The notes: generated by a model not told the origin, from the letters alone. DNA of 64,000 nucleotides from Bacteroidota bacterium (GCA_038750505.1 JBCDHD010000020.1:3534-67533), one strand, 5' to 3'. Positions 2,869-50,236 are shown, numbered from the stretch's first letter. Program-made: numbers and translations.

Positions 2869-3879
2869 TTGTATCATCCAAGATTATATGGGGAATATTA
2901 CGAAATGGGACTGAAGTACGGAACACTACTTCGTGAGAAAGCAGACTTCGTTCTCCCTAAAATAAACAGTAAAAAAAGAAGATTTGGGCTCGAATCCTAC
3001 AAAGAGTTGCAACGCTTTTATCCCGAAGTCGTGGAGGAAATAAAAGGTTTTGCAAATGGGATAAATGACCAACCCGAAAACCTTGGAGCCTTTCTTTTAA
3101 GCCTTGGCGTTTTTGATACGGGTGGTCAATGTAGCGTATTCGCCTTTAAAAATGAAGACTCCGTAGTCGTTGGCAGAAATTATGATATGCTTTTTGCGTT
3201 TAAAAAATTCACTGAAAGCAGTTTAATAGCGCCTAACGACAAGTATGCCTACATCAGTCAATCGGATATTTTTATTGGTCGTTCGGACGGTATCAACGAA
3301 AAAGGCTTGTCTATTGCTATGTCGTTTGTGAATGGGACTGCGATTCAGCCGGGAATAGGGTTTCATTTTGTCATCCGAAAAGTATTGGAAAATTGTAGTA
3401 CCACAGCACAGGCAATACAGCTTATACGAAATACCAGGGTTTCTACTGCAAATAATTTTTTAATTGCTGATTGCACAGGTGATATGGCGGTAGTAGAATC
3501 TGCCCCGCAAAAAAAAGTCGTCAGAAGACCAGAACACAATCAAAACTACATTTATATAACGAATCAGTTTATATCGGGGGAAATGACCGTCTTGGATCGC
3601 GGAGGTGTTGAATGGAGTAAGAGTTCTGAGCGATCTCAGCAATTGGAAAAAAAATTGCATTCTATTAAAAATATGGACCAACTAAAAGCCAAGCAAATCC
3701 TTTCGGACGAATGCATATGTCTGAATTTAAAAAAAGAAAAGTTTGGCACCATATGGTCCGTTGTGGGCAATTTAAATAATCTATCTATTGAACGTGCAGA
3801 AACCAGGCCTAAAGTTTACAACTACAACTCGGAAAAACGATTGGATTGGTGGCTAAAAAAAAGAAATAAACGTAGTTAA
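2869..3879 (+). CDS. C45-family Ntn hydrolase / acyl-CoA:6-APA acyltransferase-like protein
   Basis: The N-terminus ..GEYYEMGLKYG, the GGQCSVFAF segment (candidate nucleophile Cys) and NFLIADCTGDMAVVE resemble C45/choloylglycine-type Ntn hydrolases. TTG start, exact start uncertain. No signal peptide. Confidence 0.65.
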   Translation: MYHPRLYGEYYEMGLKYGTLLREKADFVLPKINSKKRRFGLESYKELQRFYPEVVEEIKGFANGINDQPENLGAFLLSLGVFDTGGQCSVFAFKNEDSVVVGRNYDMLFAFKKFTESSLIAPNDKYAYISQSDIFIGRSDGINEKGLSIAMSFVNGTAIQPGIGFHFVIRKVLENCSTTAQAIQLIRNTRVSTANNFLIADCTGDMAVVESAPQKKVVRRPEHNQNYIYITNQFISGEMTVLDRGGVEWSKSSERSQQLEKKLHSIKNMDQLKAKQILSDECICLNLKKEKFGTIWSVVGNLNNLSIERAETRPKVYNYNSEKRLDWWLKKRNKRS

Positions 3880-41481: not shown

Positions 41482-41503
41482 GCCAGGTGTATCCAATAAA
41501 AAA

Positions 41504-41535
41504 AGCCCTGATACTCTGGTATCAGGGCTTTTTTC
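41504..41535. terminator. bidirectional rho-independent terminator
   Basis: Perfect 11-bp stem AGCCCTGATAC-tctg-GTATCAGGGCT, flanked by A6 upstream and T6 downstream, between convergent genes. Confidence 0.85.
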
Positions 41536-42183: not shown

Positions 42184-43932
42184 ATGTACAGAAGTCATAC
42201 CTGTGGTGAACTGGGAATGCAGGATAGCGATCGCGAAGTTACCCTTAGTGGTTGGGTACACAAAGTCCGTGACAAGGGTTTTGTAGTGTGGATAGACTTG
42301 CGAGACCGTTATGGGCTTACCCAACTGGTTTTTGATGAGGATCGTACCCCCAAATCGCTATTGGAGCAGGCCAGAGGCCTAGGTAGGGAAACCGTTATAC
42401 AGGTTTCAGGTACGGTGATTGAAAGGGCCTCAAAAAACCCAAATATGGCTACCGGTGCTATCGAAGTATTGGTGCAGTCGCTTCTTGTTCTAAACGAAGC
42501 CATGCTTCCTCCGTTCACTATTGAAGACGATACCGATGGTGGCGATGATCTTCGTATGAAGTACCGCTATCTGGATATCCGAAGGGCTCCTGTAAAAAAC
42601 AACCTCATTTTTAGGCATCAGGTGACCATGGAAGTACGAAAGTACCTATCCGGAGCAGGGTTTATTGAGGTAGAAACCCCCTATTTAATTAAATCTACCC
42701 CCGAAGGCGCCCGGGATTTTGTGGTCCCCAGCCGAATGAACGAAGGGCAGTTCTATGCGCTTCCTCAGTCGCCCCAAACCTTTAAGCAATTACTGATGGT
42801 TGGGGGAATGGACAAATACTTTCAAATTGTAAAGTGTTTTCGGGATGAAGATCTTAGAGCTGACCGGCAGCCGGAGTTCACCCAAATTGATTGTGAAATG
42901 GCTTTTGTGGAACAGGAAGATGTCCTAGCGACCTTTGAAGGCCTGACCAAACACCTACTTACCGAAATAAAAGGAATAGCGCCTGCAGACTTCCCCAGAA
43001 TGACCTACGACGAGGCCATGCAACGTTACGGGAATGATAAACCCGATATTCGTTTTGGAATGGAGTTTGGTGAACTAAACGCTGTAGCACAACACAAAGA
43101 TTTCAATGTATTCAATACTGCCGAATTAGTAGTGGGGATTGCCGTTCCCCAAGGAGCTTCGTATACCCGCAAGGAAATCGATAAACTCATAGATTGGGTA
43201 AAACGCCCACAGGTAGGCGCCAAAGGCATGGTCTATGTTAAATGCAATGAAGATGGCACTTACAAATCTTCAGTCGATAAGTTCTATGACCAGGAAGATC
43301 TGGCCGCCTGGGCTCAGGTGACCGGAGCACAGGCTGGTGACCTGATCTGTGTCCTTTCCGGAGAAGCGAATACCACACGTGGGCAATTGAGCGCCTTACG
43401 TATGGAACTGGGAGAGCGTTTAGGACTGCGAAAACCGGATGAATTCGCCCCACTTTGGGTAGTGGATTTTCCCCTGTTAGAATTGGATGAGGAAACCGGC
43501 CATTACCACGCCATGCACCATCCGTTTACTTCGCCCAAACCAGGGCAACTGGAACTTTTGGATACAGATCCGGGTGCTGTTCGCGCCAACGCTTATGATC
43601 TTGTGCTTAACGGTAACGAGATTGGTGGAGGCTCTATTCGTATCCATGATAAGGCCACCCAGGCCATCATGTTTAAGCATCTGGGTTTTAGCCCTGAGGA
43701 AGCCAAAGCGCAATTTGGTTTTTTAATGGATGCCTTTCAATATGGCGCCCCGCCTCATGGCGGTATTGCCTTTGGCCTGGATCGACTGGTTGCTATTTTA
43801 GGTGGACAAGAAACCATCCGGGATTTTATTGCCTTCCCTAAAAATAATAGTGGAAGGGATGTGATGATCGATGCGCCGGCGACTATCGACCAGGCGCAAT
43901 TGGATGAGCTGGGGCTAAGTCTTAAATCATAG
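42184..43932 (+). CDS. aspS: aspartate--tRNA ligase
   Basis: [25 protein letters not shown]-fold start, and class II motifs [18 protein letters not shown] and [10 protein letters not shown]. Confidence 0.97.
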
Positions 43933-43936
43933 GGAT

Positions 43937-46900
43937 CTATTGTCGGTCACGTGCTCTTGGTCGTAACGAGATAATATACCCTAATTGCAGTTCGCTAAAG
44001 CCATTGGTTTCAAAACTGCCATTATTAGAATATCGATACCTAAAAAAGAATTTGTTATCACTGGTAGCTGAAGGGCTGTAATGCGCATCTATCGCAAATT
44101 GCCATAACCATTGGGGATCATCGGTCAAATTTTCCCGAAACTGTTCTTCTGAGCTTATAACCGAAAAATCCCTGGTTTGCGTGTTGAAGCGCATGTACCT
44201 CCCCGATAACGAAGCACCATAGCGCTCCTCAGGCCTTAGTCTAAAAAGAATTTCAGGATAATAGCGCCATGTATTGGTAAAGCCATTGGAATCTATGGGC
44301 TCTCCTTCATCCATAGTGTCCGAAGCAACCGTATTGGCTAATACCCGTGTTCTTCCAAATCTGGCACCAGCATTAATCTCCGTTCTGAACTTACTATTGG
44401 GAAAATCAAACATAAAGAGGTTTAAGTCTGCTCCCACTGAAATATTTTCGTAGCGTAATAAATCCAAAAGTGTAACATAAGATACTGTTTGTTCACTGCC
44501 ATTGATAAATGTAGGTAGTGTTGAAGCCACCAAATTATCGGTATCTTCAGAGGTGTTCAATCTGGCCCATCGAAACTCAGGACGCATGTAATTCACATAA
44601 CCCCAATTAAAAGAAGGTCCTAAAACTCTTCTTAAGAACCTTCTAGGTCCAACAGGTTTTCTTTTCGTATGTAATGGTATAATTCGGTCAAACTCAAATT
44701 GGGCTGCTCCATTGGGATCACTTCCGAAACCAATAAAGTCAGTAAACACTTTAATATTGAAAAGCTTGGAGCTAACTTCTTTCTTCAGCTGTAACTTGTT
44801 GTTGGTTTCTTTATGTTCAGAATTGATATCGATTTTTACAGATTGATTTTTAGGACTAAAATCCAATCTATCATTTGCTAGTCTTTGTAAATACTCAGGA
44901 AAGACATCTTCCATTTCCATAGAGAATTGTTTCTTACGACCTTTTATTACTGACAACTCATACCCCTTAATATCTTCATAGTCAATCTGAGAGCTAAATC
45001 CATAAGGGAATTGACTGGTGAATTTGTTTTTTTTTCCGAAATGGGTATCCCATTCTTTGTTCTCGGCAATTAAGTCAGCCAATTTTAAATAGACCTCCTC
45101 GCTTTGTTCGTTAACAGCAGTTGGCCCTTTTATTTCGGCTTCAACTACAACGCGTTCTAAAAAGCCATCATTAAAATCCAAATCAATTGATTTGGCTTCA
45201 AAGTCCCAAAGTGTTACTCGATCCAACTCTTGACGTATCCGTTGAAGGGTATTTTTTTGTTTCGAATCATTTTGTAGAGAGTTTTTTGTGGCTTTTATAC
45301 TATCAGTAAGTCTTTGCCTGAAGTTACCATATTCATTGGTTCGATAAAAATCACGTAAAATCTTATTACTAATAGTGTCATAGTAATCTCTTCTTAAAAC
45401 TTTCAATATGTCTTTATCTAAAACCGTTTGATCAAAAAGATTCCCCCTTAAATTCTTTAGCTTTTTTATTTCATTTTCAAAATTTTCACCTTTCAAATTT
45501 CGAATATCCTGCCATTCCTCTCGATAATCCGCAATAAGCTTTTCATACTTCTCACTTAAAGCGAGATTTTCTCTATGTCTTGATCTGTCACCATTATAGT
45601 ATTTTTCGAAATCACTAAGTTCTTTTTTTAAAGACGAAAAAGAATCCCAGTCATCTTGTCCTGTTAAATCCTGATACTCATCATTAAGTTTCCCCCATAA
45701 TTCGTCAAGTTGATCTTCCTTTGAATTTAATCTTATTGTTTTTTCAGAGGTAAACTTTTCGATTCTATCATAAATAACTAATTGAGTTTCCAGAAATTTT
45801 ATTGTAGATGATAGTTTTGCCTTAGTTTCTTCCGCCCCGACATAATCCTTTAAATTCTCTGTTAAGCTCGGTAAAACCTGTATACTTTTAAGTTCCAACA
45901 ATCTTCTTTTAATTAACTTCTCCCTCTTTTTCCAGGTATAAACATCATAACGATTTATTATGTCATCAAAATTGTCGTAAAAGCTAACAGGGTTATTTAG
46001 ATATTTTATTTTATACTCTTTCCTATTTGCAAAATGACTTTTTATAACACATGCATAATATATTAGCAATGGATTATTTTGAATTCGACTAAGTAATTGT
46101 TTGGTCTGATTTTTAAGAATACTTTCAACAATAGATTCTCTTTTGCCTTCAACAGAATTTATATTTTCAGAAAAAAAAAGCTCTAACGAATTCTTCTCTT
46201 TAATATATTTTTCTACGCTAACCAGCCCGTCGTTTAAATACTCCAAACGGGAAGATTTTTTTTTGTCTTCCCAATCCGCTAATTTATCTTTAACCAGAAA
46301 GTAAGAGTCGATTAATCTCCAAGGTATTAGTTGAGAAACCTGAATCTCATTATTTTGGACGAGAATCAACTTCTTCAGATCTTTTAAAAACTTTAGTTCA
46401 TGTTCTAACATAACATATTCTGAAAACCCCCATTCATTTGTCTCAATTTCGATTTTATGCTGTTTTTTTTGATAGAGTTTTTCAATCTTATTCTTAAGAA
46501 CAGCTACTCTGTCGTCTAGATCTCTATCGATAGAGTCAGTCCTTAGTCCTCGGTTTATTAGATATTCTTCAATATCTATAGTTTCAAGAGAGCCAAGATC
46601 ACATTTTAAACATTTCTTCCATAATTTGGGGTAATCATGCAGTGTTAGGTGAGATACTTCTTTTCCAAGTTCTTCTTTAACCGGATTATTAAGTTCATTA
46701 GTCGCTTTCGAATCATCTTTACCTATTTTAATCTGATTTTTATTGGGTAATTTAAATTCATTGTATTTTTTTTGAACCTTTCTTAATTGCCTAATTAATT
46801 TGTGATAATCTGTCACCCTCTTTTTTAGATAAAGCTCATCACTATCTCCGGTATAATATTGTACTCCACGTATGAGTTTATTGAAATACAAATTACCCGC

Positions 46901-47671
46901 AACGGGCTCAGTATCAAACTGAAACAATAGGACTAATTGGGCGTCAAAGAAACGGTAAATACGATTCAAAAGACCTTCTATTCGCTGTTTAGACTCAAAG
47001 TATTCGATAGTATTAGGTCTGGTTAGCAAATTATTGAAATCCTCAAAAGTATCCGTATCTAAGATCTCTTTTACTCTTTCATCAGCTATGGCAGTCATAG
47101 CCTTTTGCAAATCCTCAAGTGCACGATCCTTCAATTCTCCAAGTTTCCTTTTAATGTCATCATTCGTATTAGCATCTTCTAATAAGTTTTTCTTCTGCTC
47201 ATTTGTTAAAAGCTTATTAAGCACAATCGAAAGGGAATGAAGTTTATCTTTAGTATCTGTTTCTGGATCGGCATCTCCTTGATTTAAATTATCTCGAGTT
47301 TCATTTGTTGGTTCAGCATTTTTTTGTTTATCATTCTTTACTTTTTTCAGATCGATTAATAGTAATTCAGTGTCCATTTGGTAAAGAGCAATTTCTTTGA
47401 GTGATTTTAAAAAATTATCCCTGAAGGTTTTCTGGTTCAGAGGATTGATTTCCAAAGTAATAGGAAATTCAAACCCTACTTTGTTTTTGTCGTCACTAAC
47501 AGTTTCTGTAGGGGCTATAGAGAAAGTTACATTGGACAGCGTCTCGGCCTTAGCAGAAATGGTCAATTTAGATTCTTCCGTTAATGGTACTCCTTTTACT
47601 TCTTTTTCTTGGGTCATAGCCAGAAAAGGAAGGAATACGGCACAGATTATTAATATTATATTGGTTTTCAT
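43937..47671 (-). CDS. hypothetical 1,244-aa secreted/outer-membrane protein, no recognisable family
   Basis: Uninterrupted ORF with signal peptide MKTNIILIICAVFLPFLAMTQE. About 900 aa are Lys/Glu/Asn/Leu-rich. The last 300 aa or so have beta-strand-like alternation (VGADLNLFMFDF, WRYYPEILFRLRP, KFFFRYRYSNN, FSELQLGYIISL). The coding DNA is very AT-rich. Confidence 0.8.
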   Translation of the reverse strand: MKTNIILIICAVFLPFLAMTQEKEVKGVPLTEESKLTISAKAETLSNVTFSIAPTETVSDDKNKVGFEFPITLEINPLNQKTFRDNFLKSLKEIALYQMDTELLLIDLKKVKNDKQKNAEPTNETRDNLNQGDADPETDTKDKLHSLSIVLNKLLTNEQKKNLLEDANTNDDIKRKLGELKDRALEDLQKAMTAIADERVKEILDTDTFEDFNNLLTRPNTIEYFESKQRIEGLLNRIYRFFDAQLVLLFQFDTEPVAGNLYFNKLIRGVQYYTGDSDELYLKKRVTDYHKLIRQLRKVQKKYNEFKLPNKNQIKIGKDDSKATNELNNPVKEELGKEVSHLTLHDYPKLWKKCLKCDLGSLETIDIEEYLINRGLRTDSIDRDLDDRVAVLKNKIEKLYQKKQHKIEIETNEWGFSEYVMLEHELKFLKDLKKLILVQNNEIQVSQLIPWRLIDSYFLVKDKLADWEDKKKSSRLEYLNDGLVSVEKYIKEKNSLELFFSENINSVEGKRESIVESILKNQTKQLLSRIQNNPLLIYYACVIKSHFANRKEYKIKYLNNPVSFYDNFDDIINRYDVYTWKKREKLIKRRLLELKSIQVLPSLTENLKDYVGAEETKAKLSSTIKFLETQLVIYDRIEKFTSEKTIRLNSKEDQLDELWGKLNDEYQDLTGQDDWDSFSSLKKELSDFEKYYNGDRSRHRENLALSEKYEKLIADYREEWQDIRNLKGENFENEIKKLKNLRGNLFDQTVLDKDILKVLRRDYYDTISNKILRDFYRTNEYGNFRQRLTDSIKATKNSLQNDSKQKNTLQRIRQELDRVTLWDFEAKSIDLDFNDGFLERVVVEAEIKGPTAVNEQSEEVYLKLADLIAENKEWDTHFGKKNKFTSQFPYGFSSQIDYEDIKGYELSVIKGRKKQFSMEMEDVFPEYLQRLANDRLDFSPKNQSVKIDINSEHKETNNKLQLKKEVSSKLFNIKVFTDFIGFGSDPNGAAQFEFDRIIPLHTKRKPVGPRRFLRRVLGPSFNWGYVNYMRPEFRWARLNTSEDTDNLVASTLPTFINGSEQTVSYVTLLDLLRYENISVGADLNLFMFDFPNSKFRTEINAGARFGRTRVLANTVASDTMDEGEPIDSNGFTNTWRYYPEILFRLRPEERYGASLSGRYMRFNTQTRDFSVISSEEQFRENLTDDPQWLWQFAIDAHYSPSATSDNKFFFRYRYSNNGSFETNGFSELQLGYIISLRPRARDRQ

Positions 47672-47675
47672 TTCG

Positions 47676-48509
47676 TTATATTTTGGTTAGATGGATGGTT
47701 AGGTTTTTGGCAGTTCCATTGTCATTGAAAGTGAGATTGTAGGTAATGGAAGAATCTTCACCAATACTAATACTCTCTTCACTTACACCGGTAAGATCAA
47801 AAGATGAATTGTCCTTTTCTGCTTGGCCTATAAATACATTTACTTCGCTCGTAGTAAAAGCACCTGTAATTGCGCTAAATATTGCTGTTTCCTCCGAGCT
47901 CAACAGAAAGAGGTTATTGTTGACATCGATAGAACCCAGCACATTAAATAAGTCTTCAGTTACTTCTACCGTACTATCTTCTTCCGATGGCTCCGTTGCA
48001 TCGTTAGACCCATCGTCTCCATTACCATCAGATTCATCATTCGTTGCTTCCACTCTAAAAACCCGAACCAAGCCCGAATAGCTCCCATTCAAATCATTCT
48101 GATCCGAAAATCTGCTGATGTGAAAATTATCCTCCTGAATCCTAACTTTTCCATTTGTTGCTAAGACAGTAAACGAACTGTCTTTTGGAATACCGACATT
48201 GGCCTTAAAATCCAGGTTTTGAGCCGTAAAACTGGTGCTCCTGAAAAGATACATTTCAAAATTTACCCTTTCTATATCCTCATTATTATCTCGAATTCTT
48301 ACAAGTGTTTCAAGATTGTTTTGTTTTGTAGAACGTGTAGAGTTCTGCATGAATTCGAAGGTCCCTGTTCCCGGCAGAAAGAATTCAAAACTGGAGGTTT
48401 CGGTACTATCTATAACAATGCTGCCGATATCCTGAGTAAGTCGCCATGGACTATCGGTAGAACAGGACATCAAACTGACAGCCAGCATAAAAAGAATACG
48501 CTTCTTCAT
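47676..48509 (-). CDS. hypothetical lipoprotein, first gene of the orphan pair
   Basis: The Met at 48509 gives MKKRILFMLAVSLMSCS (lipobox). Acidic stretch EATNDESDGNGDDGSNDATEPSEEDS. Ends 4 nt before the 1,244-aa ORF. Confidence 0.7.
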   Translation of the reverse strand: MKKRILFMLAVSLMSCSTDSPWRLTQDIGSIVIDSTETSSFEFFLPGTGTFEFMQNSTRSTKQNNLETLVRIRDNNEDIERVNFEMYLFRSTSFTAQNLDFKANVGIPKDSSFTVLATNGKVRIQEDNFHISRFSDQNDLNGSYSGLVRVFRVEATNDESDGNGDDGSNDATEPSEEDSTVEVTEDLFNVLGSIDVNNNLFLLSSEETAIFSAITGAFTTSEVNVFIGQAEKDNSSFDLTGVSEESISIGEDSSITYNLTFNDNGTAKNLTIHLTKI

Positions 48510-48864
48510 AATCGATGAATTTAGTTCGTTAGTTAATTCTTCAATTTGCACAAACGGGAAGCACTAGGCCATACCCATTACCGTGTATTTCGTAAGAATT
48601 GTACTGTAAATAAGGGGGGAGATGCCTTTGGTATAAAGACGCCTTTAAAGTAGGGTATTCCAGGGAACATAAACTACGGGAAACCTCAAAGCCCAAAGTA
48701 TTTTCATAGAATATCGATGCGGCGCAACTTAAAGAATTCCACCTAAAACTGGATTTATAGATCGGAACAGCTTCCTTCGGAATACAATTTCGGTTAAAAA
48801 GCATCTTCTAACCCTTGCAAGGTGAGGTAGGGTGAGGAACAATAAAAAAGTTACCTTTAATTAC

Positions 48865-49410
48865 ATGAAGAAGTGGCTAAAAATCACGCTGTTTGTACTT
48901 TTTGGTGGAATTCTAATCCTTATTGGGGTAATTGGTTATGGCTATTACCACTATTGGGGACGATTTACCGCCGATACAGCAACCTATCCTCCAAGTGTGG
49001 AATATATAGATCCGGAAAAAGCCCTTTACGGCAAAGGCTTTAAAGCCTGTAACGAAAATAGCATTGCCCAATACTATAATCCGGAACGTGCCACCTACAG
49101 CAAGGGCAAAAACGGGCTTAGAAAATTCATTATGTCCAATTATATCAACAAAGGGTATTCGGATTCTGGCTACCTGAATATCAGATTTGTTATCAATTGT
49201 AAAGGAGCGGCTGGCCGGTATATCATTCATGAAAATACCCTTGATTTGGAGCCTACCGAACTAGACAAAGACATGACCAACCAACTTTTTGCTTTGACAA
49301 GACAACTTAAAGATTGGAATCCCGTCTTCTTTCGAGGAAAAAATCGGGATGCCTATATGTACCTATCCTATCGTATAGAAAATGGAGAGATCGTTGCGAT
49401 ATTGCCTTAA
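48865..49410 (+). CDS. hypothetical membrane-anchored protein
   Basis: ATG 48865 gives MKKWLKITLFVLFGGILILIGVIGYGYY (TM anchor). No family recognised with confidence. Confidence 0.6.
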   Translation: MKKWLKITLFVLFGGILILIGVIGYGYYHYWGRFTADTATYPPSVEYIDPEKALYGKGFKACNENSIAQYYNPERATYSKGKNGLRKFIMSNYINKGYSDSGYLNIRFVINCKGAAGRYIIHENTLDLEPTELDKDMTNQLFALTRQLKDWNPVFFRGKNRDAYMYLSYRIENGEIVAILP

Positions 49411-50212
49411 TTGTCTTTGCGCTGCTGTGGTATTTTCCTGCAGTGAAAACTCCTCTGATCTCAGTTCGGAAGAGCGTAGAGCATTAGCGACACAAGTATT
49501 TTCCGAAGGTTCGCATTTACCCCAGGGATCCGCAAAAAGTATGACCCGAATTGCACGAGCCATTGAAATAGATTCTACCTACGCCGAAGCTTTAAGAGAA
49601 CATTCTGTCGCCTATCTAAAAAGGGGTATGCCCCACAAATGGAAACCGTGGTTTGATAAAGCGGTTTACCATGACCCACAAACCTGGCAACCCTGGCGAG
49701 GGTATCTCTATCTTTGGTTCTACCGGGATTACAAAAAAGCCATCGCAGACTTTAACGCCTCGGACACCCTTACGCCATATATAGATTATCCTCAAGGACA
49801 CAGCGTAGATTATTGGCGGGGAATTGCCTATCTCGGTTTAAAAGACTATCAAAATAGCATTGCCTTTTTTAACAAACATATCTTAAAAGAAACAGCAGAT
49901 TCAGGAGAAGACTGGGTAGAAATTAATGCATTTTTGTACCGGGGAATTGCATACATGCAAGCAGGAGATTCCATTAAGGCGTTGGAGAATTACGATAAAG
50001 TGATCCACTACTTTAAAAAATCGGCAGACGCAAAATACTGGAAGGCGAGAATGATACAACATACCGGAGAAAAGGAAAAGACCTTGGCTCTAGCGAATCA
50101 AGCAAAAGAGGACTTCAAGGAAGGGTATTTTAATAATCGCCCTTATGTAGAAACCTTGTTTCAGTTATACCCTGAGGATTTCGAAGTTTTGATCACGTCA
50201 ATCAACGAATAA
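49382..50212 (+). CDS. TPR-repeat lipoprotein
   Basis: Lipobox AAVVFSCSE. TPR-like repeats (..YWRGIAYLGLKDYQNSIAFFNK.., ..LYRGIAYMQAGDSIKALENYDKV..). Confidence 0.7.
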   Translation: MERSLRYCLNCLCAAVVFSCSENSSDLSSEERRALATQVFSEGSHLPQGSAKSMTRIARAIEIDSTYAEALREHSVAYLKRGMPHKWKPWFDKAVYHDPQTWQPWRGYLYLWFYRDYKKAIADFNASDTLTPYIDYPQGHSVDYWRGIAYLGLKDYQNSIAFFNKHILKETADSGEDWVEINAFLYRGIAYMQAGDSIKALENYDKVIHYFKKSADAKYWKARMIQHTGEKEKTLALANQAKEDFKEGYFNNRPYVETLFQLYPEDFEVLITSINE

Positions 50213-50236
50213 ATGTAGTACCCCTTGGTGAATGCT

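What the first reader, a model, noticed from the sequence alone, without database searches (positions are those of the whole stretch)
43937..48509. AT-rich orphan two-gene module: lipoprotein plus a 1,244-aa protein with a long helical region and a C-terminal beta-barrel-like domain
Seen in sequence. Two co-directional minus-strand ORFs lie 4 nt apart. The first has a clean lipobox (MKKRILFMLAVSLMSCS) and a strongly acidic middle. The second has a cleavable signal peptide, then about 900 aa dominated by Lys/Glu/Asn/Leu/Ile that look helical or coiled-coil. In that region I see no P-loop, HExxH, HD, DxD or other catalytic motif. The last 300 aa or so switch to alternating aromatic/hydrophobic strands (VGADLNLFMFDF, FRTEINAGARFGR, WRYYPEILFRLRP, YGASLSGRYMRFN, WLWQFAIDAHYSP, KFFFRYRYSNN, FSELQLGYIISL), as in outer-membrane barrels. 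Hand GC counts on 60-nt lines give about 22-35% between 44.8 and 47.4 kb, against about 40-52% in aspS, the barrel-coding end and other genes. Inference. The topology resembles an autotransporter or anchor-plus-passenger protein, but with a helical rather than beta-helical passenger, plus a dedicated lipoprotein partner. I cannot place either protein in any family I know. The composition and position suggest horizontal acquisition. This is my best candidate for an undescribed cell-envelope system, possibly a surface fibril, adhesion or phage-receptor-masking layer, or an envelope tether.
Basis: partly seen in the sequence, partly recalled or inferred. Interest (0 to 1): 0.75.

Follow-up and report, generated by a model that had tools for sequence, protein, structure and literature searches.

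The report
Hypervariable outer-membrane barrel protein plus lipoprotein
This is a real two-gene cell-envelope cassette, a lipoprotein plus a 1,244-residue protein with a long, fast-changing helical region and an outer-membrane barrel anchor; it belongs to a sizeable but uncurated and unnamed Bacteroidota family, sits as optional cargo in a genomic hotspot, and has an undetermined function.

Summary
Two minus-strand genes lie 4 nt apart: a lipoprotein and a signal-peptide protein with about 800 helix-rich residues, an α/β "neck" and a C-terminal β-barrel. They contain the lowest GC in the window.

The module is not an orphan. Exhaustive HMMER finds 357 clusters at 50% identity (E ≤ 1e-10), and 35 Bacteroidota species genomes carry it. 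The lipoprotein lies directly upstream in 25 loci. No Pfam, NCBIfam, PADLOC or PDB-sequence family matches either protein. Foldseek returns only transmembrane outer-membrane barrels.

Low GC is intrinsic to the gene in every lineage, so it is not evidence of transfer. The module is nonetheless accessory: all 59 related aspS–ClC loci lack it. It is also evolutionarily decoupled from its flanks. In Flavobacterium the helical middle is mosaic and hypervariable between conserved ends. Against a Croceivirga relative the whole module is 29-51% identical while the flanks are about 90%.

Best guess (about 0.4): the barrel anchors the protein and the helical part stays in the periplasm as a scaffold or wall connector, because three distant members carry a peptidoglycan-binding domain there. 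Rivals are autotransporter-like surface display (about 0.3) and a Slam-like lipoprotein exporter (about 0.1). I rate it a new variant of a known kind, of moderate interest.

The parts
48510..48706 (-). Upstream non-coding region of the module (probable promoter / 5' region)
   Evidence: About 80% DNA identity to the Croceivirga MAG locus L007, ending at the lipoprotein start codon. No promoter motif was established.
47676..48509 (-). Lipoprotein gene (277 aa plus stop), partner of the barrel protein
   Evidence: ORF. One homologous family sits directly upstream of the barrel gene in 25 loci. No Pfam, NCBIfam, PADLOC or PHROG match.
48462..48509 (-). Lipoprotein signal peptide and lipobox (residues 1-16, ...SLMS-C16)
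   Evidence: The Cys is invariant in 22 homologues. Asp at +4 occurs in 20 of 22, but the published export-signal acidic pair occurs in only 4 of 22 and not in the window's copy.
47952..48041 (-). Acidic low-complexity insert of the lipoprotein (residues 157-186)
   Evidence: 43% Asp+Glu. Present only in the window and, in longer form, in L007.
47672..47675 (-). 4-nt spacer between the lipoprotein stop codon and the barrel-protein ATG
   Evidence: Read directly. Relatives have gaps of 2-25 nt or a 4-nt overlap.
43937..47671 (-). Large envelope protein gene (1244 aa plus stop)
   Evidence: ORF. 439 representative homologues at E ≤ 1e-3. The gene is intact at 800-1230 aa in isolate genomes.
47612..47671 (-). 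Signal peptide (residues 1-20), with cleavage exposing Gln21
   Evidence: The sequence itself. The Gln is nearly invariant in the family alignment. Q-rule from PMC5837995.
46802..47611 (-). Conserved N-terminal domain (residues 21-290: short β segment, helices, DTEPVAG motif)
   Evidence: Conservation profile. About 90% identical among Flavobacterium species, with ω 0.11-0.19.
45221..46801 (-). Length-variable, hypervariable helical middle (residues 291-817); holds the GC minimum
   Evidence: Middle length is 99-568 aa across the family, with low alignment occupancy. Predicted helices at low confidence. 38-65% identity among Flavobacterium species whose flanking domains are about 90% identical, with a mosaic pattern and sharp boundaries. 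GC 0.30.
44762..45220 (-). Conserved α/β 'neck' domain (residues 818-970: PLWxF, DxNDGF, FPxGFSS and NDRLDFSP motifs)
   Evidence: Invariant residues in 33-35 sequences. AF2 gives a ββ-αα-β-α-ββ arrangement at pLDDT about 60-70.
43964..44761 (-). C-terminal outer-membrane β-barrel (residues 971-1236, about 14 predicted strands)
   Evidence: AF2 model. All top Foldseek hits are transmembrane OM barrels. Turns alternate with loops: five of the six predicted periplasmic turns have invariant length, the predicted extracellular loops are variable, and the strands are amphipathic.

Best explanation
The module is an accessory two-gene cell-envelope cassette of Bacteroidota.

Shown: gene 1 encodes a lipoprotein. 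Gene 2 encodes a Sec-exported protein whose last 265 residues or so have the sequence and predicted-fold properties of a transmembrane outer-membrane β-barrel. The barrel is preceded by a conserved α/β neck, a length-variable and fast-evolving helical region, and a conserved N-terminal domain.

Inferred mechanism: BAM inserts the barrel into the outer membrane as an anchor. Strand 1 starts at the periplasmic face, so the roughly 950 N-terminal residues remain in the periplasm. There they form a helical scaffold or stalk hanging from the outer membrane. Its conserved N-terminal domain and neck work together with the co-translated lipoprotein, which would sit on the inner leaflet of the outer membrane. 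The stalk reaches towards the peptidoglycan. In a few distant members it binds the wall directly through an inserted PG_binding_1 domain. On this reading the helical region varies because only helicity and approximate length are constrained, and alleles are exchanged by recombination through the conserved ends.
For: The barrel: AF2 model with 14 strands. Every top Foldseek hit in the PDB and BFVD is a transmembrane OM barrel. Conserved short turns alternate with variable long loops, and the strands are amphipathic. Many Flavobacteriaceae members end in ...GYxxYLKF.

Periplasmic start of the barrel: this follows from the loop/turn pattern. No helix precedes strand 1.

Peptidoglycan link: PG_binding_1 in P0146 at 28.6 bits, above the gathering cutoff of 23. 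The equivalent segment in L040/P0129 also matches an endolysin PHROG at 1.8e-8. P0043 has it too. In all three it lies inside the helical middle region.

Structural precedents for a periplasmic helical extension on a C-terminal barrel: OmpM (PMC10628300) and Slam (PMC5449769). FapF and DcaP are among the fold hits.

Partner link: the lipoprotein is directly upstream in 25 loci and evolves at the rate of the conserved N and C domains.

Export: a signal peptide followed by a nearly invariant Gln (PMC5837995).
Against: A structural tether would be expected to be core and conserved. This module is instead sporadic: it is absent from all 59 related aspS–ClC loci. Its middle region is mosaic and hypervariable, with dN about 10-fold above the flanking domains and ω 0.38-0.67. 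That pattern is more typical of exposed proteins.

The PG-binding insert occurs in only 3 of about 180 family sequences searched directly, and the window's protein is not one of them. The middle length ranges from 99 to 568 aa, which does not suit a fixed periplasmic ruler.

The helical region is modelled at pLDDT below 50, so its shape is unknown. The barrel model is only pLDDT 65 and its first seven strands are short. No experiment bears on localisation.
Confidence: 0.4

Rival explanations
1. Self-exported surface fibre or adhesin (autotransporter-like, with a head–stalk–anchor layout). The C-terminal barrel translocates the N-terminal region to the cell surface. There the helical stalk is under diversifying selection from phages, grazers or competitors, and the lipoprotein is a surface partner.
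For: The module is accessory and sits in a hotspot. The helical middle is mosaic and hypervariable with sharp boundaries between conserved ends. Against L007 the whole module is 29-51% identical while the flanks are about 90%. The BrkA autotransporter β-domain is among the fold hits. Asp at +4 after the lipid-modified Cys occurs in 20 of 22 partners, which partly resembles the export signal (PMC5080379).
Against: No autotransporter β-domain Pfam match in about 140 members scanned. The model has 14 strands rather than 12 and no linker helix before strand 1. The N-terminal domain, which would be the distal tip, is as conserved as the barrel, unlike typical adhesin heads. PG_binding_1 lies inside the stalk in three members. 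The required acidic pair of the export signal is present in only 4 of 22 partners and is absent from the window's copy.
Confidence: 0.3
2. Slam-like dedicated translocator. The barrel protein, with a periplasmic helical domain and an approximately 14-strand barrel, delivers the adjacent lipoprotein to the cell surface. It would be a Bacteroidota analogue of the proteobacterial Slam / DUF560 (type XI) system.
For: The layout matches Slam: a periplasmic helical N-terminal domain, a 14-strand barrel and an adjacent lipobox gene (PMC5449769). Here 14 strands are predicted and the lipoprotein is directly upstream in 25 loci. The window's partner lacks a full general export signal, so it might need a dedicated route.
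Against: No DUF560 or TPR match in any member. The barrel protein commonly occurs without the lipoprotein, in Tenacibaculum, Chitinophagales and Bacteroidales, so the lipoprotein cannot be its obligate substrate. The N-terminal part is 600-950 aa and hypervariable, far larger than a Slam N-terminal domain.
Confidence: 0.1
3. Polymer-export porin with a helical periplasmic scaffold (BcsC / PgaA / PelB–PelC type).
For: The overall size and layout are similar: about 1,200 aa with a helical N-terminus, a C-terminal barrel and a lipoprotein partner. The PgaA and AlgE barrels appear among the weaker fold hits.
Against: No synthase, glycosyltransferase or other export gene is conserved next to the module in any of 40 loci. 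There are no TPR matches. Those porins have 16-18 strands, against about 14 here.
Confidence: 0.04
4. A recently acquired foreign AT-rich orphan island, possibly non-functional.
For: The module contains the lowest GC in the window. It is absent from most relatives at this site. Some metagenomic copies are disrupted.
Against: The GC dip is present in all 28 loci tabulated and tracks host GC. There are no tRNAs, integrases or flanking repeats. The family is absent from viral contigs. The conserved domains are under purifying selection, ω 0.11-0.30. The gene is intact in all isolate genomes.
Confidence: 0.03

Closest known systems
OmpM / SlpA-type outer-membrane tethers (diderm Firmicutes, Deinococcus)
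   Same: Signal peptide, then a periplasmic helical or coiled-coil stalk, then a C-terminal OM β-barrel. The wall-binding module is on the periplasmic part. Three distant members here carry PG_binding_1 there.
   Different: No SLH domain and no sequence similarity. The barrel has about 14 strands, not 16 or more. The helical part is 5-10 times longer, broken into many helices and hypervariable. The module is accessory rather than core, and it has a lipoprotein partner.
Slam / DUF560 (type XI secretion) with adjacent surface lipoprotein
   Same: A helical periplasmic N-terminal domain, a predicted 14-strand C-terminal barrel and a lipoprotein gene immediately adjacent.
   Different: No DUF560 or TPR match. 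The phylum is Bacteroidota rather than Proteobacteria. The barrel protein often occurs without the lipoprotein. The N-terminal region is much larger.
Type V autotransporters / trimeric autotransporter adhesins
   Same: An N-terminal signal peptide, a long passenger-like region and a C-terminal barrel anchor. The helical stalk is mosaic and recombining between conserved ends, as in coiled-coil adhesins.
   Different: No autotransporter β-domain match. The model has 14 strands rather than 12 and no linker helix. The N-terminal 'head' is conserved rather than variable. A conserved α/β neck domain precedes the barrel.
FapF and DcaP (barrels with an N-terminal periplasmic coiled coil)
   Same: Both are among the best structural matches to the barrel, and both have an N-terminal periplasmic coiled-coil extension.
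   Different: TM-scores are only 0.2-0.35. Their coiled coils are short (tens of residues). FapF lies in an amyloid operon, and no such genes occur here.
BcsC / PgaA / PelB–PelC exopolysaccharide porins
   Same: A protein of about 1,200 aa with a long helical periplasmic scaffold and a C-terminal barrel, sometimes with a lipoprotein partner.
   Different: No TPR repeats are detectable, no synthase operon is present, and the barrel is smaller.

Membership tests
Type Va autotransporter | Autotransporter β-domain (Pfam PF03797-type) at the C-terminus | tested here: not met
   No Pfam hit at E ≤ 1 for the window's protein. None in 33 + 53 + 56 family members.
Type Va autotransporter | 12-strand barrel with an α-helical linker running through the pore just before strand 1 | tested here: inconclusive
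   The AF2 model (pLDDT 65) has 14 strands and no helix at residues 949-970. Coordinates could not be inspected.
Type Va autotransporter | Passenger exposed on the cell surface | not testable with these tools
   Needs surface shaving or labelling.
Slam / DUF560 (type XI secretion) | DUF560 barrel domain | tested here: not met
   No Pfam match.
Slam / DUF560 (type XI secretion) | N-terminal TPR domain | tested here: not met
   No TPR family hit in any member. The helices are 5-58 residues long.
Slam / DUF560 (type XI secretion) | Adjacent gene encoding a lipobox protein | tested here: met
   One homologous lipoprotein family directly upstream in 25 loci. It is absent in Tenacibaculum, Chitinophagales and Bacteroidales.
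Slam / DUF560 (type XI secretion) | Barrel-dependent surface display of the lipoprotein | not testable with these tools
   Needs a translocation assay.
OmpM / SlpA tether | N-terminal SLH domain | tested here: not met
   No SLH hit.
OmpM / SlpA tether | Peptidoglycan-binding module on the periplasmic extension | tested here: inconclusive
   PG_binding_1 in P0146 (28.6 bits against a cutoff of 23), L040/P0129 and P0043 only. The window's protein has none.
Omp85 (BamA / TamA / TpsB) | POTRA domains plus a 16-strand Bac_surface_Ag/ShlB barrel | tested here: not met
   No Pfam or NCBIfam hit.
PorP/SprF type IX secretion barrel | PorP/SprF Pfam/TIGRFAM signature | tested here: not met
   No hit in Pfam or NCBIfam.
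Generic transmembrane OM β-barrel (fold class) | Even number of amphipathic antiparallel strands, short periplasmic turns, long extracellular loops, and structural similarity to solved barrels | tested here: met
   14 strands. Five of the six turns have invariant length (the sixth varies 0-2 aa). Loops 3, 9 and 11 are length-variable, and loops 9 and 11 have the highest entropy. All top Foldseek hits are OM barrels with probability up to 1.0, though TM-scores are only 0.2-0.4.
Bacteroidota surface-exposed lipoprotein (export-signal-dependent) | Two acidic residues at about +4/+5 after the lipidated Cys, preceded by a polar residue or Lys (PMC5080379) | tested here: not met
   The window reads C-S-T-D-S-P, with one acidic residue. 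The acidic pair occurs in 4 of 22 family members and Asp at +4 in 20 of 22.
Known anti-phage defence systems | Match to a PADLOC model | tested here: not met
   No hit for 8 proteins of the two families.

The most novel reading that the evidence does not exclude
The module is a previously unrecognised Bacteroidota surface-display system. The roughly 14-strand barrel would export either its own hypervariable helical region or the cognate lipoprotein to the cell surface, by a route distinct from the type IX system and from the general lipoprotein export signal. Allelic replacement at genomic hotspots would be driven by phage, grazer or competitor pressure.
Probability: 0.3. Interest if true: 0.8.

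Novelty: new variant of a known kind. Interest (0 to 1): 0.5.

Why it matters
Bacteroidota dominate marine particle and gut communities, and their outer membrane is organised differently from the proteobacterial model. This work defines a family of several hundred sequence clusters that no curated database covers. Its layout is recognisable: an outer-membrane barrel anchor, a huge helical extension and a dedicated lipoprotein. Its evolutionary behaviour is unusual. It is optional cargo inserted between core genes. Its helical core is mosaic between conserved ends. Whole-module alleles are far more divergent than the surrounding genome. If the helical region is periplasmic, the family is a new kind of accessory envelope connector. 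If it is surface-exposed, the family is a new display or secretion route in a phylum where surface lipoprotein export is still mechanistically unresolved. Either way the family now has clear boundaries, conserved motifs and cultured hosts, which makes it testable.

Tried and rejected
1. Full-length word-indexed homology searches returned only the query itself. The Lys/Glu/Asn-rich region saturated the candidate list. The C-terminal 400 aa alone and the exhaustive HMMER search recovered the family.

2. Single-sequence and profile searches of PDB sequences found nothing.

The barrel model therefore rests on 7 sequences.

4. The full-length AF2 model was too uncertain to read any tertiary structure in the helical region (pLDDT 47.7).

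5. My crude heptad score did not separate the regions.

6. The hairpin hypothesis, that the two helical arms co-vary in length around a central island, was inconclusive. The island is conserved only in the window's sub-clade, and the correlation was Spearman 0.34, p = 0.055, confounded by phylogeny.

7. I first read as a recombination breakpoint inside the barrel-coding region. Local identity and protein profiling showed instead that divergence begins at the gene end, so I withdrew that claim.

8. PADLOC gave no hit, PHROGs gave only one weak hit of unknown function plus the endolysin-type match in L040, and the viral-contig scan was negative.

9. No tRNA or flanking direct repeats were found.

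10. No convincing Bacteroidota-type promoter motif could be called by eye upstream of the lipoprotein gene.

Full report
OBSERVATION. The window contains two co-directional minus-strand ORFs. The large gene is 43937..47671 (1244 aa). The lipoprotein ORF is 47676..48551, and its ATG at 48509 gives MKKRILFMLAVSLMSC... (277 aa). The junction reads TAA-cgaa-ATG, a 4-nt spacer. The lipoprotein has an acidic insert at residues 157-186 (43% Asp+Glu) and a net charge of -24. The module's GC is 0.350 against 0.421 for the rest of the window. The lowest 1.5-kb stretch of the whole 64 kb (0.30) lies inside the large gene.

NOT AN ORPHAN, BUT UNCURATED. Neither protein hits Pfam, NCBIfam or PDB sequences. 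Full-length word-indexed searches returned only the query, because the low-complexity helical region swamped the index. The C-terminal 400 aa alone found six relatives at 31-52% identity. An exhaustive HMMER scan of 1.84 billion representatives found 439 proteins at E ≤ 1e-3, 357 at ≤ 1e-10 and 93 at ≤ 1e-30. All align over the last 360-430 residues and are 300-1230 aa long. A scan of species-representative genomes found 35 loci, all from Bacteroidota: Flagellimonas, Croceivirga, Aquimarina, Aureitalea, Winogradskyella, Psychroserpens, Flavobacterium, Tenacibaculum, Tamlana, Flavivirga and Pontimicrobium, with more distant copies in Chitinophagales, Saprospiraceae, Bacteroidales and Cyclobacteriaceae. 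About 140 family members and 22 lipoprotein partners scanned individually gave no Pfam family, apart from one informative exception described below and some generic coiled-coil matches. Public names are 'hypothetical protein'.

ARCHITECTURE. Family alignments show five parts. First, a signal peptide followed by a nearly invariant Gln, which fits the Bacteroidetes Q-rule (PMC5837995). Second, a conserved N-terminal domain of 110-265 aa. Third, a middle region of 99-568 aa with low alignment occupancy. Fourth and fifth, a conserved C-terminal block of 371-446 aa that comprises an α/β neck and the barrel. The neck carries invariant motifs (PLWxF, DxNDGF, FPxGFSS, NDRLDFSP). AF2 on the C-terminal 466 aa (7 sequences, pLDDT 64.6, pTM 0.57) predicts a ββ-αα-β-α-ββ neck and then 14 antiparallel strands. 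Foldseek against the PDB returns only transmembrane OM barrels: OpcA, FapF, NanC, the BrkA β-domain, OmpT/Pla and DcaP. Probabilities reach 1.0 but TM-scores are only 0.2-0.4. The viral library gives the same picture. Taking the last strand as ending at the periplasmic face, as is usual for OM barrels, the connectors alternate. Five of the six predicted periplasmic turns have invariant length, and one of them (RPEER) has the lowest entropy of any connector, 0.67. Predicted extracellular loops 3, 9 and 11 vary in length (0-14, 4-22 and 17-30 residues), and loops 9 and 11 have the highest entropy. The long strands are amphipathic. Many Flavobacteriaceae members end in ...GYxxYLKF, although a terminal Phe is not universal (22 of 151 sequences). 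The fold class is therefore well supported, but the exact strand count (12-14) is not. The full-length model predicts about 30 helices of 5-58 residues at pLDDT below 50, so the shape of the helical part is unknown.

THE LIPOPROTEIN PARTNER. An iterated profile shows one homologous lipoprotein family directly upstream of the barrel gene in 25 loci, with a gap of 2-25 nt or a 4-nt overlap. Tenacibaculum retains the barrel gene at the same site without the lipoprotein. Chitinophagales and Bacteroidales members are mostly solitary. Two distant members (L034, L040) have an unrelated small upstream gene that overlaps by 4 nt. The barrel protein is therefore the core, and the lipoprotein is an accessory found only in the Flavobacteriaceae loci. 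The published lipoprotein export signal requires two acidic residues at about +4/+5 (PMC5080379). Asp at +4 occurs in 20 of 22 partners, but the acidic pair occurs in only 4 of 22 and not in the window's copy. Surface exposure of the partner is therefore not established.

COMPOSITION IS INTRINSIC. In all 28 full-length loci tabulated the large gene is 2-14 GC points below its own flanks, and in 24 of them the middle region is the lowest segment. The gene's GC also tracks the host's, for example 0.27 with 0.30 flanks in Tenacibaculum and 0.365 with 0.45 flanks in Aureitalea. There are no tRNAs, flanking repeats or mobility genes, and no family members on viral contigs. Low GC therefore reflects the Lys/Asn/Ile/Glu-rich protein composition and is not a sign of foreign origin.

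THE MODULE IS ACCESSORY AND DECOUPLED FROM ITS FLANKS. The module occupies different conserved sites in different lineages. One is next to aspS and an RND pump (window, L002, L006, L007). Another is inside a biotin-gene block shared by seven genera. A third is a Flavobacterium site. A metagenome scan with the window's AspS returned 80 loci at 80-86% identity. None carries the module, and the pipeline's positive control worked. Of 59 loci holding both aspS and the ClC channel gene, 33 have the two genes 37-201 nt apart. The others hold different small cargo. Loci L041-L043 and L107 match L006's flank identities yet lack the module. The module is therefore optional cargo at an aspS–ClC hotspot.

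Against the Croceivirga MAG locus L007, the RND pump is 93% identical, the 116-aa gene 91% and AspS 88%. The lipoprotein is only 46% identical, and the large protein 35/29/51% over its N-terminal, middle and C-terminal parts. DNA identity is about 0.8 in both flanks. It drops to 0.60-0.68 at the 3' end of the large gene, becomes unalignable from about 44465 to 48489, and returns to 0.8 immediately upstream of the lipoprotein ATG.

Flavobacterium species show the opposite pattern. The lipoprotein and the N and C domains are about 90% identical, with dS 0.20-0.34 and ω 0.11-0.30. That is less diverged than the neighbouring RND genes in the same genome pairs (dS 0.40-0.84). The middle region is 38-65% identical (dN 0.24-0.59, dS 0.41-1.30, ω 0.38-0.67), with sharp boundaries and a mosaic pattern. 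Both patterns suggest allelic exchange by recombination. Slippage and misalignment in low-complexity helical sequence could inflate the estimates for the middle region.

TOPOLOGY CLUE. The Imperialibacter protein P0146 has a full-length PG_binding_1 domain (residues 326-382, 28.6 bits against a cutoff of 23) inside its middle region. The Cyclobacteriaceae member L040/P0129 has the equivalent segment (19 bits), which also matches an endolysin PHROG at 1.8e-8. P0043 has it as well. Only these three of about 180 family sequences searched directly have it.

INTERPRETATION. My best reading (about 0.4) has the barrel as an outer-membrane anchor and the N-terminal 950 residues or so remaining in the periplasm. 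There they would form a helical scaffold or wall connector that works with the lipoprotein. OmpM (PMC10628300), FapF and DcaP are analogues. The main rival (about 0.3) is autotransporter-like surface display. The accessory distribution and mosaic hypervariability favour it. The lack of a β-domain match, the 14 strands, the absence of a linker helix, the conserved N-terminal 'head' and the PG-binding inserts disfavour it. A Slam-like dedicated lipoprotein exporter (PMC5449769) has the same layout, but the family lacks DUF560 and TPR domains, and the barrel often occurs without the lipoprotein (about 0.1). Polymer-export porins and a 'foreign orphan island' are largely excluded.

VERDICT. This is a real, conserved and uncurated Bacteroidota envelope module with unusual evolutionary dynamics. 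It is a new variant of the known theme 'outer-membrane barrel with a helical extension and a lipoprotein partner'. Its function and the compartment of its hypervariable region remain to be determined experimentally.

Noticed in passing
window 43933-50224, and loci L041-L120: The aspS–ClC interval is an accessory-gene hotspot. In 33 of 59 related loci the two genes are 37-201 nt apart. Others carry a ~237-aa secreted protein, the p192+p276 pair (window 48832-50212), a 99+103-aa small-ORF pair (L054) or a 372-aa lipoprotein (L067).
   Followed up: partly
L001 9977-9979; L004 about 1773-1779; L002 about 3104-3165; L003 4786-6162; L005 1731-3428: Several metagenomic copies of the large gene are disrupted. 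L001 has an in-frame TAA, L004 a frameshift at an A7 run and L002 a frameshift in a 2x-coverage contig. L003 is truncated next to Rep_1, type I R-M and MksE-like genes, and L005 next to an ISL3 transposase. Whether these are real pseudogenes, phase variation or assembly errors is unresolved.
   Followed up: partly
L026, L027, L029 (Tenacibaculum): The barrel protein is retained at the same biotin-cluster site, but the lipoprotein partner is missing. A bioA-like gene lies directly upstream.
   Followed up: partly
window 47952-48041; L007 6906-7838: The acidic low-complexity insert in the lipoprotein exists only in the window's copy (30 aa) and the Croceivirga MAG copy (about 80 aa). All other partners lack it.
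   Followed up: no
window 43930-43939: aspS and the large gene converge with only 4 nt (GGAT) between their TAG stop codons, which leaves no room for an intergenic terminator.
   Followed up: no
window 41499-41534: A perfect 16-nt inverted repeat flanked by A and T runs (AAAAAAGCCCTGATAC / GTATCAGGGCTTTTTT) lies between the RND pump gene and the 116-aa gene. It looks like a bidirectional intrinsic terminator.
   Followed up: no
window 45092-45373 (large protein residues 767-860): A weak match to phrog_26248, a family of unknown function (E = 7.6e-4), spans the end of the helical region and the start of the neck domain.
   Followed up: no
L036, L039, L040, L001, L003: Several distant or metagenomic family members lie near defence-like genes: a TIR-like protein, a large methyltransferase/restriction-like protein, AAA_15/AAA_21 ATPases, and type I R-M with MksE. 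PADLOC does not match the family itself.
   Followed up: partly
L011-L014, L017, L019, L021, L025-L029: In seven genera the module is inserted inside a conserved biotin-synthesis gene block with bioD-, bioA- and bioB-like neighbours. This is a second recurrent insertion site, unrelated to the aspS site.
   Followed up: partly
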